Below are positions 2,622 to 46,247 of a DNA stretch of 64,000 nucleotides, in pieces (the first letter of the stretch is position 1; each line of letters starts with the position of its first letter). The notes beneath the pieces were generated by a model that was given only the letters and a program-made list of their open reading frames with translations, was not told the origin of the DNA and ran no database searches. The stretch is from a phage. The translations under genes and the position numbers were made by a program. The stretch is taken from sequence record PZ445536.1. One strand, given 5' to 3'.

Positions 2622-3202
2622 TATTCACCACAGAATTCGTTGATATTTTCCCAATTTAACTTATTCAAGTTTTTCTTAGGAACATTAAACACTTCAATAC
2701 CTGCATTTCGCAGAATATCATCCCAGCCAGGTTTATTCTTATCGTATGTTTCGCAATAAACCAGCTTTTTAATTCCAGATTGAGCTATCGCTTTTGCACA
2801 ATCTGGGCAAGGAGAAAGTGTTACATACATAGTAGCACCTTCAATTGAAGAACCGTTTCGCGCAGCAAACAAAATTGCATTTAGCTCAGCATGAATTTCA
2901 TTTTTAGACGACCATTCAGAGTGAGCGCCGCGATGTTCTTTCGCCAAAACAAAACGATCAGTTGAACCAAACGATACACATTCGGGCTTATGACCTTGAA
3001 TGATAGTATGTTTAGGTTTATTCAGCAACCAACCTTGCTCAGCAGCATAATCACAACAGTTCACACCGCCTGCGGGCGAACCATTATACCCAGTAGAAAT
3101 AATACGTCCATTCTTTTCAATTACTGCTCCTACCTTCCAGGAGCAACATTTGGATTCTTGTGATACTAAATATGCAATTTGAAGTACTGTACTCGCTTTC
3201 AT
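2621..3202 (-). CDS. cd: dCMP deaminase
   Basis: 193 aa; cytidine/deoxycytidylate deaminase zinc motifs HAE...PCxxC (HAELNAI, SPCPDCAKAI); T4 Cd length. Confidence 0.9.
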   Translation of the reverse strand: MKASTVLQIAYLVSQESKCCSWKVGAVIEKNGRIISTGYNGSPAGGVNCCDYAAEQGWLLNKPKHTIIQGHKPECVSFGSTDRFVLAKEHRGAHSEWSSKNEIHAELNAILFAARNGSSIEGATMYVTLSPCPDCAKAIAQSGIKKLVYCETYDKNKPGWDDILRNAGIEVFNVPKKNLNKLNWENINEFCGE

Positions 3203-3537
3203 TTCATAATCACCAGATAAGCAGATTTAGCAGTTTCAACACGATAAATTTCATGACGAAGTTTAGTTATACTTTTAATAACAGAACTAATTATATTCTG
3301 CCCATCTTTAAAGCGGTTTTTCTTATCAATGAAAATTGCACCAGCCATCTTTTTGTGAAGCTCAACTGGATACTTCGTCACAATAATAGCATCATACACA
3401 GAAGGATGAATACTATTCACTAGAGTATCGTTCATTAAAGTTATTCTAATGAACTGTGCTGTTTCAGAATCAAGCGCTCTATGATCGCCAGTATCATTTT
3501 CAAGACAATTATCAATTATATCAGTTAAATTCATCAT
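3199..3537 (-). CDS. hypothetical protein (cd.1-like, 112 aa)
   Basis: ORF overlapping cd start by 4 nt (translational coupling). Confidence 0.6.
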   Translation of the reverse strand: MMNLTDIIDNCLENDTGDHRALDSETAQFIRITLMNDTLVNSIHPSVYDAIIVTKYPVELHKKMAGAIFIDKKNRFKDGQNIISSVIKSITKLRHEIYRVETAKSAYLVIMK

Positions 3538-3832: not shown

Positions 3833-4108
3833 TTAAATTGCTTTGAATTCTGATGTCTGCGATTCAAAACGAATATCGCCTTTAATGACTAGCTCAGCAT
3901 CAAGACCGAATACGACAATGATATGCGCGGAACCTGGATACAGCGTAATGGCGATAGAATCAACCTGGTCTGGAAGCAAAGTGTTCAATACATGAGTCAC
4001 TTGAGCATGAATTCGAAGCTCAGCTGCGTTATCAAGCTTTTCAAACATATTATTAGCGATAATTTGGCTAAACACTACTTCTACGATTTTAGAATAAGTC
4101 GGAAACAT
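3833..4108 (-). CDS. hypothetical protein (91 aa)
   Basis: ORF in cd-pseT interval. Confidence 0.6.
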   Translation of the reverse strand: MFPTYSKIVEVVFSQIIANNMFEKLDNAAELRIHAQVTHVLNTLLPDQVDSIAITLYPGSAHIIVVFGLDAELVIKGDIRFESQTSEFKAI

Positions 4109-7139: not shown

Positions 7140-8727
<1,588 letters not shown>

Positions 8728-42354: not shown

Positions 42355-42624
42355 TTATTTAAAACGAATAGTTGAATCCTTAAAGAACAGCCCAGAACAT
42401 ACTGTTCCTTCTACTTTCTGCCCGGTAGGTCCAATAGCACGAAATCCAGTATGTTGGAAATCATTTTCAGAGCAACCGAACCAGTTATATCCAGTGATTT
42501 CAATATTAGTAAAACCGCTTGAAGATAAAACTTTGGTTGCATTATCAGCATCAGTACATCCTACTAAAGATACTGCTAATACTAATGCTGCAATAGAACG
42601 ATTAATATATTTCATAATTTTCAC
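42355..42624 (-). CDS. putative lipoprotein (89 aa)
   Basis: Signal peptide with lipobox LVGC. Confidence 0.6.
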   Translation of the reverse strand: MKIMKYINRSIAALVLAVSLVGCTDADNATKVLSSSGFTNIEITGYNWFGCSENDFQHTGFRAIGPTGQKVEGTVCSGLFFKDSTIRFK

Positions 42625-42992
42625 TTAAATTTAATGGCTTGAAGAAGACTAATAATTCTCAAACGGCTTCTTTCATCTTTAACTGTAAAAGAAAGAGGGT
42701 CACCAGATTTCATAGTAATAGTACATTCAAAATCAAAATCTTCGGGAACTTCTTCGAATAGGTCAAATTCTTCATCATAAATTAGAACATTACTCTGAAA
42801 ACTGTGAAGAATTTTTCCATCATTTCCAGATGCTGTACTAATCATTGTAACATTATTACCTTTCATATCTTCAACGATAAATTCGCTTGTAGATATTACA
42901 TTACTAATAGAACCATTCCTATAAATAGCAGAAAATAGATATTTCTTTTCTTCGCCTTCGCGAATACGATACTTCTTACCGATTTTAAACAT
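42621..42992 (-). CDS. hypothetical protein (123 aa)
   Basis: ORF in 39-dexA variable region. Confidence 0.6.
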   Translation of the reverse strand: MFKIGKKYRIREGEEKKYLFSAIYRNGSISNVISTSEFIVEDMKGNNVTMISTASGNDGKILHSFQSNVLIYDEEFDLFEEVPEDFDFECTITMKSGDPLSFTVKDERSRLRIISLLQAIKFK

Positions 42993-43821: not shown

Positions 43822-44091
43822 TTAATTAAACAGTGGAGCGATGCGTTTCAGAAGAGTAGCAGCACCTTTGGCGAATTTTACATCATGAAAAACAGTTTCT
43901 TCTTCCGTTACAACACGAGCTTTAATGTTTTCACAATCCCAATTTTTACGAACAATCTTCAAAAGCTGCAGTAAATCTTTACATTCAGCAATATCGATAA
44001 CACATCCACGAGAATCTTCCATTATCGCACGATAACCGTAAGCCATACCATAATCGTTGAAAGATTGCTCGATGATAATTAAGTTTTCCAT
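43822..44091 (-). CDS. hypothetical protein (about 89 aa from MENLIII)
   Basis: ORF 43822..44103; GGAGAATAAAATG SD supports second ATG. Confidence 0.55.
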   Translation of the reverse strand: MENLIIIEQSFNDYGMAYGYRAIMEDSRGCVIDIAECKDLLQLLKIVRKNWDCENIKARVVTEEETVFHDVKFAKGAATLLKRIAPLFN

Positions 44092-44117
44092 TTTATTCTC
44101 CAAGTTGTTTTCTGTAT

Positions 44118-44156
44118 CAGTAGTTGATATTGATATAGTACCATAATCAACTACTG
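44118..44156 (-). promoter_or_regulatory. early-promoter-like -10 (TGGTACTATA) embedded in a perfect 11-bp inverted repeat; -35 degenerate
   Basis: cagtagttgat (44118-44128) and atcaactactg (44146-44156) flank rc atagta 44135-44140. Confidence 0.4.
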
Positions 44157-44198
44157 ATGTATATAGTTTTATGAAAAAATTTTAAACTTTATGCAAAT

Positions 44199-44618
44199 TT
44201 ATGCTAAAGCTGCTTCGCACCATTTTTTAATTTGGAATTCAGGAACTACCATGAACTGGCCTGCAAAAACAATATTGTAGAGCTTGACACCATCTTCTAC
44301 CCAACGGTCCGAAATAAAACCAGCGACTTGATTCGTTGTCCATGGAGTTCCATCTGTTGCCGCCGCAATTGTGAATTTATGGTCTTTTACAACTAAAACT
44401 GAAGAACAAAGTTTCCATTTAAATGCGCTTTCTTCTGGCTCAATGAACTGACTTGAGACATAACCAATGTTACCATCAGCGTCACGAACTTTAACCTCGT
44501 TACGACCAAAAACTGGATCACTTACAGAAAGAACTTCAACCAGCTTTCCTGCAACTTTAGAACGAGAAGCAACGGATACATATACGTAATCACCAGTAGA
44601 GAGATTTACAATATTCAT
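44199..44618 (-). CDS. hypothetical protein, tandem paralog A (139 aa)
   Basis: Shares N-terminal SVASRSKVAGKLVEV and C-terminal GFISDRWVEDGVKLYNIVFAGQF motifs with the next two ORFs. Confidence 0.6.
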   Translation of the reverse strand: MNIVNLSTGDYVYVSVASRSKVAGKLVEVLSVSDPVFGRNEVKVRDADGNIGYVSSQFIEPEESAFKWKLCSSVLVVKDHKFTIAAATDGTPWTTNQVAGFISDRWVEDGVKLYNIVFAGQFMVVPEFQIKKWCEAALA

Positions 44619-44627
44619 AATAATTCC

Positions 44628-45101
44628 TTAAGCTTTACGAGGAGAAGCATAACGAGTGATTTCAGATTCTTCAACAACCCGGAAGTCACCTAAGAATACG
44701 ATATTGTAGAGCTTTTCACCATCTTCAACCCATTGGTCTGTGATGAAGCCACACATCCTATCAGTTTTACTTGGACCAGCGAAATCATCAATATAATCGA
44801 ATTCTTCATCAGTTACAAATTCAACGCCTTTACACAACGCCCATTTAAATTGTGCATTAGACTCAGTGGATTCAACTTCTTCAACAGAAGCAAAATGAGA
44901 GCTAACACGAGTTTCCAGAAATTTAGGACTTACGTAAGCGTACTGAGTTTCAGTTTTTCCAGAACTAGGAATGATTCGAACTTTAACTTCTATAACACGA
45001 CCAGTACCATTAGTACGAAGTCCTACCACTTCAACTAGACGACCTGCAGCTTTAGAACGAGATGCAGACGATACACGCTTAATTTCACCGATAGTAATCA
45101 T
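44628..45101 (-). CDS. hypothetical protein, tandem paralog B (157 aa)
   Basis: SSASRSKAAGRLVEV ... GFITDQWVEDGEKLYNIVFLGDF. Confidence 0.6.
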   Translation of the reverse strand: MITIGEIKRVSSASRSKAAGRLVEVVGLRTNGTGRVIEVKVRIIPSSGKTETQYAYVSPKFLETRVSSHFASVEEVESTESNAQFKWALCKGVEFVTDEEFDYIDDFAGPSKTDRMCGFITDQWVEDGEKLYNIVFLGDFRVVEESEITRYASPRKA

Positions 45102-45173
45102 AATTTTTCTCTCTTTGTTGTTAAGATTTATTCTCCATGAGAGCCATTATAACAGGCTCTCTATAAAGTAAAC

Positions 45174-45668
45174 TTAATTAAGGATATTAATTACTGCACT
45201 GCGTGGAACTACACTAAAATCACCTGCATGAACAACGTTCAGAAGTTCAACACCATCTTCAAGCCACTGGTCAGTTACCCAACCACTTACTGGACCAGCA
45301 AATGGTCGACGAATTGAAACAGCTTTACACAACAAGTCAGTAGGCTCGATAGGCTTAACCAGAGTACCGTACATACAAGCGATATCCATATCAATACAGA
45401 TGTCTTTAACGGGTTCTACTTCTTCAATCAACAGTTCAAAGTCGGTGCTTGGAAGGGCGGTAGTAGAAATTGTACCGTATGAATTTTTAATTTCTAAGAA
45501 TAACCAAGGGCCTTCAGCTTGTTTGATGAAGTTAACAATAGTGAAACTATTACCTTGAGTGGCGCCTAAAATTTCACAAAACTTTTCATAAGCTCGCACT
45601 GAAGCACCATACCAGTTGATTTGTTTTTCGTCTTTCAGGATGTAAGTAGCTGTAGTACTGATATTCAT
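45174..45668 (-). CDS. hypothetical protein, tandem paralog C (164 aa)
   Basis: Divergent N-terminus but shared C-terminal GWVTDQWLEDGVELLNVVHAGDF motif. Confidence 0.6.
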   Translation of the reverse strand: MNISTTATYILKDEKQINWYGASVRAYEKFCEILGATQGNSFTIVNFIKQAEGPWLFLEIKNSYGTISTTALPSTDFELLIEEVEPVKDICIDMDIACMYGTLVKPIEPTDLLCKAVSIRRPFAGPVSGWVTDQWLEDGVELLNVVHAGDFSVVPRSAVINILN

Positions 45669-45680
45669 GATGTTTTCCCC

Positions 45681-46184
45681 TTAATCTAAGGTAATAAAGC
45701 CTTTTAATTCGGCATGTGACTTGCGGAACATTACTTGATGACCGCCAATGATAACTTGGTCATCAGGTACTTCGTATACAGCGAGATAAAATCCTTTAGA
45801 AGCTAATTCTTCACGCTCTTCTCGTGTGAACCATCTCATCATATCATATTCGCTAGCGAAAGCAAAATGATAAAGAGCTATAAACCATCCTGGAATATAG
45901 TGATCTACGCCTACATATTCTTCTTTCTCAAAATTAGTATTAATTGCTATATTAGCATTTTTAACTAATAATTTGTCTTCATGCGGCACAGGAATTCTTT
46001 TATTATCATTACTATGATGCATAAAATTGGGTCTGTCATAACCTACGCGTAATAACCACTCTTCACTCCATGAATCTATTATACTCCTGTACGGAGTTAT
46101 TTGAACACAAAGATCTCGACGTATTGTTATAGCATCTTCATAATTAAGAATACTAAATGATGATTCAACACGATAAATTTTCAT
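45681..46184 (-). CDS. hypothetical protein (about 167 aa from MKIYRVESSF)
   Basis: ORF 45681..46223; start set downstream of early promoter 46212-46241 and GAGGATAATAAAATG SD. Confidence 0.55.
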   Translation of the reverse strand: MKIYRVESSFSILNYEDAITIRRDLCVQITPYRSIIDSWSEEWLLRVGYDRPNFMHHSNDNKRIPVPHEDKLLVKNANIAINTNFEKEEYVGVDHYIPGWFIALYHFAFASEYDMMRWFTREEREELASKGFYLAVYEVPDDQVIIGGHQVMFRKSHAELKGFITLD

Positions 46185-46211
46185 TTTATTATCCTCAGTA
46201 GCTATGGTGTT

Positions 46212-46241
46212 ATAATACCACAACTAACCGAGGAAGTAAAC
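46212..46241 (-). promoter_or_regulatory. T4-type early promoter (GTTTAC, 18 bp, TATTAT)
   Basis: rc gtaaac 46236-46241; rc ataata 46212-46217. Confidence 0.5.
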
Positions 46242-46247
46242 AACTTT

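What the first reader, a model, noticed from the sequence alone, without database searches (positions are those of the whole stretch)
44199..45668. Tandem triplet of paralogous ORFs with a shared C-terminal motif
Three consecutive minus-strand ORFs (139, 157, 164 aa) share a conserved C-terminal block G(F/W)(I/V)(S/T)D(R/Q)W(V/L)EDG(V/E)(K/E)L(Y/L)N(I/V)V(F/H)(A/L)G(Q/D)F.VV; the first two also share an N-terminal S(V/S)ASRSK(V/A)AG(K/R)LVEV block. I cannot assign a function. Locally expanded, diverging paralog arrays in the hyperplastic region between gene 39 and dexA are typical of phage accessory genes under diversifying selection, for example host-takeover or anti-defence proteins with variable specificity modules on a common scaffold.
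Basis: seen in the sequence. Interest (0 to 1): 0.55.

Follow-up and report, generated by a model that had tools for sequence, protein, structure and literature searches.

The report
MotB.1–MotB–MotB-like early gene cassette
The three neighbouring genes are the known T4-type early genes motB.1, motB and a second motB copy, which share a C-terminal domain; the family is already described, so this is an ordinary, correctly spotted paralog set, not a new system.

Summary
Three consecutive minus-strand ORFs (44199-44618, 44628-45101, 45174-45668) share a C-terminal block, and the first two also share an N-terminal block.

The function is not unknown. All three pass Pfam PF17613 (motB). ORF2 is the MotB ortholog, ORF1 a second MotB-type paralog, and ORF3 a full-length MotB.1. 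The shared C-terminal domain, the duplication and the variable copy number were published in 2021 (PMC7827196). T4 MotB is a characterised non-specific DNA-binding, H-NS-perturbing early protein.

What I add:
- The trio is a discrete cassette, with DNA breakpoints at about 44194 and about 45680. It is Mosigvirus/RB69-type and sits in a T4-type backbone.
- ORF1 and ORF2 types co-occur in about 200 phage records.
- The genes evolve under purifying selection (dN/dS 0.1-0.3), not diversifying selection.
- The conserved C-terminal module occurs with at least four N-terminal arrangements, so domains are shuffled.

In passing, the T4 reference motB.1 is split by one extra G.

Verdict: already known, low interest.

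The parts
45174..45668 (-). ORF3 = motB.1, full-length form (164 aa)
   Evidence: 37% identity to T4 MotB.1, E=6e-28. PHROG 2333 E=4.6e-82. Pfam motB 34.1 bits against a cut-off of 25, C-terminal part only. RB51 annotates the equivalent gene as motB.1.
45417..45668 (-). ORF3 N-terminal domain (aa 1-84), the LSm-like/SH3-like beta domain of the GoF/MotB.1/Frd.2 type
45351..45392 (-). Conserved 14-aa peptide DMDIACMYGTLVKP in the disordered linker of ORF3
   Evidence: Conserved across MotB.1-type proteins, but it lies before the N-terminal domain, between the two domains, or is absent. It is also present in the hybrid proteins. AF2 pLDDT is below 50 here. It occurs only once in the window.
45177..45344 (-). 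ORF3 shared C-terminal module (aa 109-164)
   Evidence: C-terminal-module HMM E=4e-26. AF2 pLDDT 82-90: five strands with a short helical turn before the last strand.
45102..45173 (-). motB.1-motB intergenic region, with a GTTTAC...TATAAT promoter-like motif and a stem-loop (stem at 45139-45161)
   Evidence: Sequence read. RNA fold -18.5 kcal/mol, z -3.9. T4 has a stem-loop at the same place with a different stem sequence, z -3.7. The -35/-10 spacing is 15 nt here against 17 in T4, so the consensus scan did not list it. Promoter function is inferred only.
44628..45101 (-). ORF2 = motB ortholog (157 aa), RB69/Mosigvirus-type allele
   Evidence: Pfam motB E=6e-41, full length. 46% identity to T4 MotB, E=1e-47. 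74-85% to Mosigvirus-type loci. RB51 annotates it as motB.
44913..45101 (-). ORF2 N-terminal KOW-like domain (aa 1-63), basic (net +6, pI 10.4)
44631..44849 (-). ORF2 shared C-terminal module (aa 85-157), acidic (net -7)
   Evidence: C-terminal-module HMM E=6e-34. AF2 pLDDT 86-95. Charge.
44199..44618 (-). ORF1 = second MotB-type paralog (139 aa); starts 9 nt after the ORF2 stop codon
   Evidence: Pfam motB E=6e-20 and PHROG 1671 E=1e-50. 40% identity to ORF2 and 37% to T4 MotB. Orthologs at 80% identity or more in about 208 of 778 phage records, none at 60-80%. dN/dS 0.12-0.17.
44194..45680 (.). Extent of the exchanged three-gene cassette
   Evidence: blastn gives 82.5-84.6% identity to the Mosigvirus-type loci L003-L005 over exactly this span. 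T4-type backbones match at 92-97% up to about 44195 and again from about 45654-45708. The protein identity pattern agrees.
44104..44198 (-). Intergenic region downstream of ORF1, with a 13-bp perfect inverted repeat (44116-44158)
   Evidence: Sequence read. RNA fold -20.7 kcal/mol, z -4.6, with 0 of 200 shuffles folding as well. Function unknown.

Best explanation
The three ORFs are a co-inherited early-gene cassette of a T4-like phage (Tequatrovirus backbone). In transcription order they are motB.1 (ORF3), motB (ORF2) and a second MotB-type paralog (ORF1).

Each protein has two small beta-barrel domains joined by a disordered linker. The N-terminal domain varies: KOW-like in ORF1 and ORF2, LSm-like in ORF3. 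The C-terminal domain is the conserved module of Pfam PF17613.

By homology with T4 MotB, ORF2 most likely acts as an abundant early nucleoid-associated protein. It would coat DNA without sequence specificity, probably through its basic KOW-like domain. That would change how host H-NS/StpA sit on DNA, de-repress some host genes and modestly raise phage yield.

The shared C-terminal module is acidic and aromatic, and it is the most conserved part. I infer that it supplies a function common to all three proteins, either self- or hetero-association or binding of one common partner, and is not the DNA-contact surface. The N-terminal domains would then set the nucleic-acid target: DNA for the MotB type, possibly RNA for MotB.1.

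What is shown: identity, paralogy, domain layout, cassette exchange and purifying selection. What is inferred: DNA binding, the H-NS effects and the division of labour between the domains.
For: - Family assignment: Pfam PF17613 at 72.1, 140.4 and 34.1 bits against a cut-off of 25; PHROGs 1671 and 2333.
- Orthology to T4 MotB and MotB.1, and the annotations of near-identical phages.
- Same position and order in all 19 related loci.
- Two-domain models with confident domains and a linker below pLDDT 50.
- T4 MotB biochemistry: tight non-specific DNA binding, co-purification with H-NS/StpA only when DNA is present, toxicity, a two-fold burst effect, an altered H-NS footprint and about 75 host genes up-regulated (PMC6070864, PMC7827196).
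- The ORF2 N-terminal domain is basic (+6) while its C-terminal module is -7.
- The C-terminal module is under the strongest constraint (dN/dS 0.06-0.17). It is kept while N-terminal domains are swapped, including within ORF3 between this phage and RB51, where the module has dN=dS=0 and the N-terminal domain has dN 0.29.
- ORF1 and ORF2 types co-occur (about 208 and about 202 records), and the cassette moves as a unit.
Against: - No experiment exists for this allele. ORF2 is only 46% identical to T4 MotB.
- T4 MotB is basic overall (pI 9.2), but all three proteins here are acidic overall (pI 4.5-5.4), and the ORF1 N-terminal domain is not basic (net -1). Tight DNA coating may therefore not carry over, least of all to ORF1 and ORF3.
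- Which MotB domain binds DNA has not been determined in the papers I could read. The 2021 authors consider either domain possible.
- T4 motB.1 deletion has no phenotype in standard conditions, and MotB.1 showed no RNA effect in the reporter assay (PMC12152347).
- The partner-binding or oligomerisation role of the C-terminal module is pure inference. I could not run multimer predictions.
Confidence: 0.8

Rival explanations
1. One reading: a locally expanding paralog array under diversifying selection that encodes anti-defence or host-takeover effectors with variable specificity modules.
For: The region is mosaic and the N-terminal modules do vary on a constant C-terminal scaffold. MotB alleles differ strongly between otherwise near-identical phages: 46% against 97-100% for the flanking genes. 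Linkers evolve faster, with dN/dS up to 0.69.
Against: Ortholog dN/dS is 0.11-0.28 overall and 0.02-0.32 in the N-terminal domains, similar to the neighbouring accessory genes goF and motB.2. Copy number is only 2 or 3 and the order is fixed. The paralogs are ancient (pS 0.61). Variation arises from block exchange and domain swapping, not from local duplication. There is no match to defence-related models and no published anti-defence phenotype.
Confidence: 0.1
2. The shared C-terminal module is itself the nucleic-acid-binding domain, an OB-fold as predicted in 2021. On this view all three proteins are DNA or RNA binders through the module, and the N-terminal domains recruit partners.
Confidence: 0.25
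3. ORF1 is a redundant, decaying duplicate of motB with no function of its own.
For: It is shorter, having lost most of the linker and part of a hairpin. Its N-terminal domain has lost the net positive charge. T4 and about 70% of its relatives do without it.
Against: The reading frame is intact, with a ribosome-binding site 9 nt after the ORF2 stop. Orthologs are conserved at 84-100% in about 208 records across two genera. dN/dS is 0.12-0.17. All family-invariant residues of both blocks are kept.
Confidence: 0.05

Closest known systems
Phage T4 MotB (Pfam PF17613; PHROG 1671)
   Same: ORF2 aligns over its full length (46% identity, E=1e-47) and ORF1 at 37%. They share the KOW-like N-terminal block, the linker, the C-terminal module, the genomic position downstream of motB.1, and the cef and dexA neighbourhood.
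   Different: It is a divergent allele of the RB69/Mosigvirus type. It is acidic overall (pI 5.2 against 9.2 for T4 MotB) and comes with a tightly linked second copy (ORF1) that T4 lacks.
Phage T4 MotB.1 (PHROG 2333; LSm-like family with GoF and Frd.2, PMC12152347)
   Same: ORF3 shares the N-terminal domain and the C-terminal module, and sits immediately upstream of motB.
   Different: ORF3 has an extra linker segment that carries the 14-aa peptide DMDIACMYGTLVKP, which T4-type MotB.1 lacks. The 119-aa T4 reference protein is truncated by an extra G; intact T4 MotB.1 is 143 aa.
RB69 / Mosigvirus motB.1-motB-motB cassette (PMC7827196 reports two motB copies plus motB.1 in RB69)
   Same: Same three genes in the same order. 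DNA identity is 82-85% over exactly the three ORFs, and protein identity is 84-90%, 74-85% and 92-95%.
   Different: Here the cassette sits in a Tequatrovirus backbone, between motB.2 and a 93-aa ORF. In Mosigvirus it directly follows dexA, and a motB.2-like gene follows it.
KOW domains of NusG/Spt5/uL24 and Tudor/chromo/PWWP 'royal family' barrels (SH3-like small beta-barrels)
   Different: The window proteins show no significant sequence similarity to them. This is fold-level resemblance only, and small barrels recur widely. There is no evidence for RNA polymerase, ribosome or methyl-lysine binding.
H-NS counter-silencers that act through DNA (Ler, VirB, ToxT) rather than by binding H-NS directly (T7 gp5.5, T4 Arn)
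   Same: This is the proposed mode of action of T4 MotB: it remodels H-NS-DNA complexes and needs DNA for the association (PMC7827196 discussion).
   Different: These proteins are unrelated in sequence and fold. MotB shows no site specificity. Nothing has been tested for the proteins of this window.

Membership tests
MotB family (Pfam PF17613) | Whole-protein score above the curated Pfam gathering threshold (25 bits) | tested here: met
   ORF1 72.1, ORF2 140.4 and ORF3 34.1 bits. ORF3 matches only the C-terminal part of the model (positions 78-153).
MotB family (Pfam PF17613) | C-terminal core G-[FWY]-[IV]-[ST]-D-[QR]-W-[VLI]-E-D-G ... L-x-N-[IV]-V ... V-V | tested here: met
   Present in all three ORFs. 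The C-terminal-module HMM gives E=5e-33, 6e-34 and 4e-26.
MotB proper (T4 MotB orthologs/paralogs, PHROG 1671) | N-terminal KOW-like domain with the V-S-x-x-S-R-S-K-x-A-G block | tested here: met
   Met for ORF1 and ORF2. Not met for ORF3, which is therefore filed under MotB.1 and not under MotB.
MotB proper (T4 MotB orthologs/paralogs, PHROG 1671) | Non-specific DNA binding, toxicity, and co-purification with H-NS/StpA on DNA | not testable with these tools
   Known only for T4 MotB (PMC6070864, PMC7827196). The charge profile differs here.
MotB proper (T4 MotB orthologs/paralogs, PHROG 1671) | Position in the dexA-to-cef early region, immediately downstream of motB.1 | tested here: met
   Early timing of expression was not testable.
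MotB.1 / GoF / Frd.2 LSm-like fold family (PMC12152347) | N-terminal domain homologous to that of T4 MotB.1, with five antiparallel strands | tested here: met
OB-fold (cold-shock-like), as predicted for the MotB C-terminal domain in 2021 | Five-stranded barrel with a helix between strands 3 and 4; OB-fold proteins as structural neighbours | tested here: not met
Anti-defence proteins | Similarity to a known anti-defence family, or a protection phenotype | not testable with these tools
   PADLOC models defence proteins, not anti-defence proteins; it gave no hit. No anti-defence library or assay was available.

The most novel reading that the evidence does not exclude
The conserved C-terminal barrel is a Tudor/SH3-like protein-interaction module, not a DNA binder. 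It brings different nucleic-acid-binding heads (KOW for DNA, LSm-like for RNA) to one common host or phage partner, or it assembles the cassette's proteins into hetero-oligomers on the nucleoid. The movable 14-aa peptide DxDIA(C/S)MYGTL(V/I)KP is a short linear motif that regulates or extends this interaction. Co-transfer of the three genes as one block would then reflect co-adapted partners.
Probability: 0.2. Interest if true: 0.5.

Novelty: already known. Interest (0 to 1): 0.2.

Why it matters
The finding itself adds little. The family, its shared C-terminal domain and its variable copy number are published, and near-identical genes are already annotated as MotB-like in GenBank.

The by-products may help people working on T4 early genes:
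- The motB locus behaves as an exchangeable two- or three-gene cassette with sharp boundaries.
- Domain swapping happens on a constant C-terminal module.
- That module looks SH3/Tudor-like, not OB-like, and in this allele it is acidic. This points experiments towards protein-protein interaction.
- The T4 reference motB.1 ORF, which recent work used, appears to be truncated by a single-base discrepancy.

Tried and rejected
- **Compositional similarity only:** rejected by composition-adjusted BLASTP E-values and by the absence of any other hit in the window.
- **Solved structures by sequence:** none for ORF2 or for the C-terminal-module profile. The N-terminal-domain profile gives only sub-significant KOW/SH3 hits.
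- **Relatives outside phages:** a profile search of 1.84 billion representatives found only 23 clusters at E<=1e-10. All those I inspected were small MotB-like proteins.
- **Long tail-fibre proteins in that search:** seven of them scored through repeats of the type 'GYATEQWV', at under 8 bits per repeat. I rejected these as spurious.
- **The two MotB domains as an internal duplication:** hhalign probability 1.4%, rejected.
- **Defence and curated bacterial families:** no PADLOC hit and no meaningful NCBIfam hit.
- **ORF1 as a pseudogene:** rejected on conservation and dN/dS.
- **Core-motif codon comparison:** the ORF2 core was one codon out of register, so I use only the whole-gene ORF1-ORF2 value and the ORF1-ORF3 core value from that call.
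- **Son et al. 2021 (NAR, PMC8450097):** not held in the library. Its claim is cited only through its title as listed in PMC13096335.

Full report
**1. Observation**

The ORF listing gives three consecutive minus-strand ORFs at exactly the reported coordinates:
- ORF1: 44199-44618, 139 aa
- ORF2: 44628-45101, 157 aa
- ORF3: 45174-45668, 164 aa

ORF1 and ORF2 align over their full length at 40% identity, E=4e-29. ORF3 matches them only in the C-terminal 29-42 residues, at E=1e-10 and 2e-11. A tblastn of the three proteins and their C-terminal parts against all six frames of the window finds only these three places.

**2. Identity**

The window is a T4-like phage. The 2.5-kb region is 99% identical to Escherichia phage Ge15 and Shigella phage Sf23, and 96% to RB51.

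All three ORFs exceed the gathering threshold of Pfam PF17613 'motB', at 72.1, 140.4 and 34.1 bits against a cut-off of 25. ORF1 and ORF2 fall in PHROG 1671 (MotB-like) and ORF3 in PHROG 2333. RB51 annotates the equivalents as 'similar to motB', motB and motB.1.

Compared with the T4 reference:
- ORF2 is the MotB ortholog (46% identity, E=1e-47).
- ORF1 is a second MotB-type paralog (37% to T4 MotB). T4 has no counterpart.
- ORF3 is MotB.1 (37% identity, E=6e-28).

The gene order here is dda, dexA.2, dexA.1, dexA, motB.2, motB.1, motB, motB-like, a 93-aa ORF, cef, goF.

**3. Prior knowledge**

PMC7827196 (2021) already reports several of these points:
- MotB and MotB.1 share a conserved C-terminal domain and differ in their N-terminal domains.
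- One gene probably arose by duplication of the other.
- Homologs fall into four categories.
- Forty other genomes have both genes.
- Some phages carry extra copies; RB69 has two motB, one motB.1 and a 29-aa remnant.

PMC6070864 (2018) shows that T4 MotB is toxic when expressed alone and binds DNA tightly without sequence specificity, including glucosyl-hmC DNA. It co-purifies with H-NS and StpA and doubles burst size. The 2021 paper adds altered H-NS footprints and about 75 up-regulated host genes, a third of them in the H-NS regulon. The association with H-NS is seen only when DNA is present.

PMC12152347 (2025) assigns the MotB.1 N-terminal domain to an LSm-like fold family together with GoF and Frd.2. 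It found no phenotype for a motB.1 deletion.

**4. Evolutionary anatomy (my additions)**

(a) The order motB.1 followed by motB holds in all 19 related loci examined. A third copy is present only in this window, RB51 and three Mosigvirus-type loci.

(b) ORF1 orthologs at 80% identity or more occur in about 208 of 778 phage records with any MotB match, and none falls between 60 and 80%. ORF2-type alleles at 60% or more occur in about 202 records. The two therefore travel together.

(c) The locus is mosaic.
- Against T4, the flanking proteins are 92-100% identical (dexA 100, dda 98, cef 97, motB.2 92), but MotB is 46% and MotB.1 37%.
- Against the Mosigvirus-type loci L003-L005, the flanks are 65-79% identical, but the three ORFs are 84-90%, 74-85% and 92-95%.
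- At the DNA level, window 44194-45680 matches those loci at 82.5-84.6%. T4-type backbones match at 92-97% up to about 44195 and again from about 45654-45708.
- Synonymous divergence of the cassette from Mosigvirus (0.2-0.9) is far below that of dexA and dda (above 2).
- SHSML-52-1, a classified Mosigvirus, has dexA, motB.1, motB, motB-like in that order.

The trio is thus a block exchanged between genera, not a local expansion.

(d) Selection is purifying.
- Whole genes: dN/dS is 0.12-0.17 for ORF1, 0.21-0.28 for ORF2 and 0.11-0.12 for ORF3.
- Shared module: 0.06-0.17.
- Neighbouring accessory genes goF and motB.2: 0.09-0.28.
- Linkers are the fastest parts, at up to 0.69.

(e) Domains are shuffled. 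The C-terminal module occurs with four N-terminal arrangements:
- a KOW-like domain (MotB type);
- an LSm-like domain, with or without a linker peptide (ORF3 type and T4 type);
- a roughly 180-aa form with the peptide in front, plus roughly 248-aa forms with an extra domain;
- hybrids that join a MotB-type N-terminal domain to the peptide and a MotB.1-type C-terminal module (P0164, P0239, P0242, P0243).

Between this window and RB51, the ORF3 C-terminal module is identical even at synonymous sites, while the N-terminal domain has dN 0.29. That implies a recombination junction inside the gene.

(f) The family is small. Only 23 clusters reach E<=1e-10 among 1.84 billion representatives. BFVD shows the same two-domain layout in other Straboviridae, including Potts1, phiR1-RT, CC31 and PS2.

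**5. Structure**

AlphaFold2 models give two confident beta domains joined by a linker below pLDDT 50. Mean pLDDT is 82 for ORF2 and 78 for ORF3.

In both proteins the shared module is predicted at pLDDT of about 82-95. It has five strands, tight hairpins between strands 2-3 and 3-4, and a short helical turn before strand 5.

The KOW assignment of the MotB N-terminal domain is supported. Distant members P0244 and P0254 pass the Pfam KOW threshold. The N-terminal-domain profile also recalls uL24, NusG and Spt5 at weak E-values. The two domains are not detectably related in sequence.

**6. Mechanism**

The shown steps are family membership, domain layout, co-inheritance and constraint. What follows is inferred.

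ORF2 keeps a basic KOW-like domain (net +6, pI 10.4) next to an acidic C-terminal module (net -7). The invariant residues of the module are D, W, E, G, L, N and V, and none is basic.

I therefore propose that the N-terminal domain contacts nucleic acid. The shared module would provide a common protein-level function, either oligomerisation on DNA or binding of one partner. For ORF2, the outcome would be the one described for T4 MotB, namely remodelling of H-NS-DNA complexes early in infection.

A caution applies. T4 MotB is basic overall (pI 9.2), whereas all three proteins here are acidic (pI 4.5-5.4), and the ORF1 N-terminal domain is not basic. Tight DNA coating may not carry over unchanged.

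**7. Verdict**

The feature is already known, as MotB, MotB.1 and an extra MotB copy. Interest is low, with a few useful side results listed under 'noticed in passing'.

Noticed in passing
L002 (NC_000866.4) 3222-3320; the extra G is at record position about 7304-7305: The T4 reference motB.1 (119 aa) stops in the middle of the shared motif because of one extra G (ATTGGAAG against ATTGAAG). The remaining 29 aa, LEDGVELLNVVHAGEYSVVPRSAVVAILN, are intact in the next frame. Two independent T4 genome records (MT984581.1 and MZ375356.1) lack the extra base and encode a 143-aa MotB.1. PMC12152347 worked from NC_000866.4 and quotes 13.8 kDa, which is the truncated size.
   Followed up: yes
window 45351-45392 (-), ORF3 aa 93-106: A conserved 14-aa peptide, D-[MIF]-D-[IV]-A-[CS]-M-Y-G-T-L-[VI]-K-P, changes position among MotB.1-type proteins. 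It lies between the two domains here, at the extreme N-terminus in the roughly 180-aa class, and is absent in T4-type MotB.1. It is also present in the KOW-type hybrids. It sits in a linker of low pLDDT and looks like a short linear motif of unknown partner.
   Followed up: partly
proteins P0164, P0239, P0242, P0243 (metagenomic or phage relatives): These hybrids combine a MotB-type KOW-like N-terminal domain with the movable peptide and a MotB.1-type C-terminal module (PTDLLC...ELLNVVH). They are direct evidence of domain shuffling between the two paralog lines.
   Followed up: partly
protein P0245 (43 aa): A remnant ORF whose first roughly 15 residues match the start of motB.2 (MKIYRVESSFSIL.YED) and whose last 28 residues are the MotB.1 C-terminal tail. 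It looks like a deletion that joined the two genes at a short YED/EDG overlap. It is probably the kind of short peptide listed as category 3 in PMC7827196.
   Followed up: no
window 45139-45161 (-) and L002 about 3175-3208 (-): A stable stem-loop lies between motB.1 and motB, and its loop holds a TATAAT box. The stem sequence differs between this phage (GAGAGCC/GGCUCUC) and T4 (GGGACC/GGUCCC) while pairing is kept. The z-scores are -3.9 and -3.7. A GTTTAC motif sits upstream, with 15-nt spacing here and 17 in T4.
   Followed up: partly
window 44116-44158 (-): A perfect 13-bp inverted repeat (AUCAGUAGUUGAU ... AUCAACUACUGAU) lies in the 95-nt gap between ORF1 and the 93-aa ORF. The fold is -20.7 kcal/mol, z -4.6, and there is no T-run after it.
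   Followed up: no
window 42621-42992 (-), 123-aa ORF: This ORF is absent from T4 and is annotated RB32ORF005c in RB51. It belongs to the same PHROG as GoF (phrog_622, E=2e-28). It also weakly matches the N-terminal part of the MotB.1 PHROG (E=5.5e-4) and P0140 (E=2e-4). The window therefore has at least three members of the GoF/MotB.1 LSm-like family within 3 kb.
   Followed up: partly
window 45174-45668 against L001 (RB51) 2875-3384: Between this phage and RB51, ORF1 and ORF2 are 99-100% identical, and the ORF3 C-terminal module is identical even at synonymous sites. The ORF3 N-terminal domain and linker are strongly diverged (dN about 0.28, dS 0.7-0.9). This indicates a recombination junction inside motB.1 near the domain boundary.
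   Followed up: partly
window 46164-46247 and L005 5105-5186 / L022 about 3920-3980: The sequence just upstream of motB.2 in this window is about 75% identical to the sequence just downstream of the cassette in Mosigvirus-type loci, where a motB.2-like gene (35% identity) follows the cassette instead of preceding it. The cassette and motB.2 therefore have swapped order between the genera.
   Followed up: no
window 43822-44103 (-), 93-aa ORF: This small ORF lies between the cassette and cef. Among the loci examined it is present only in RB51 and L014, and it is absent from T4 and from the Mosigvirus-type loci. It belongs to PHROG 3720, of unknown function.
   Followed up: no
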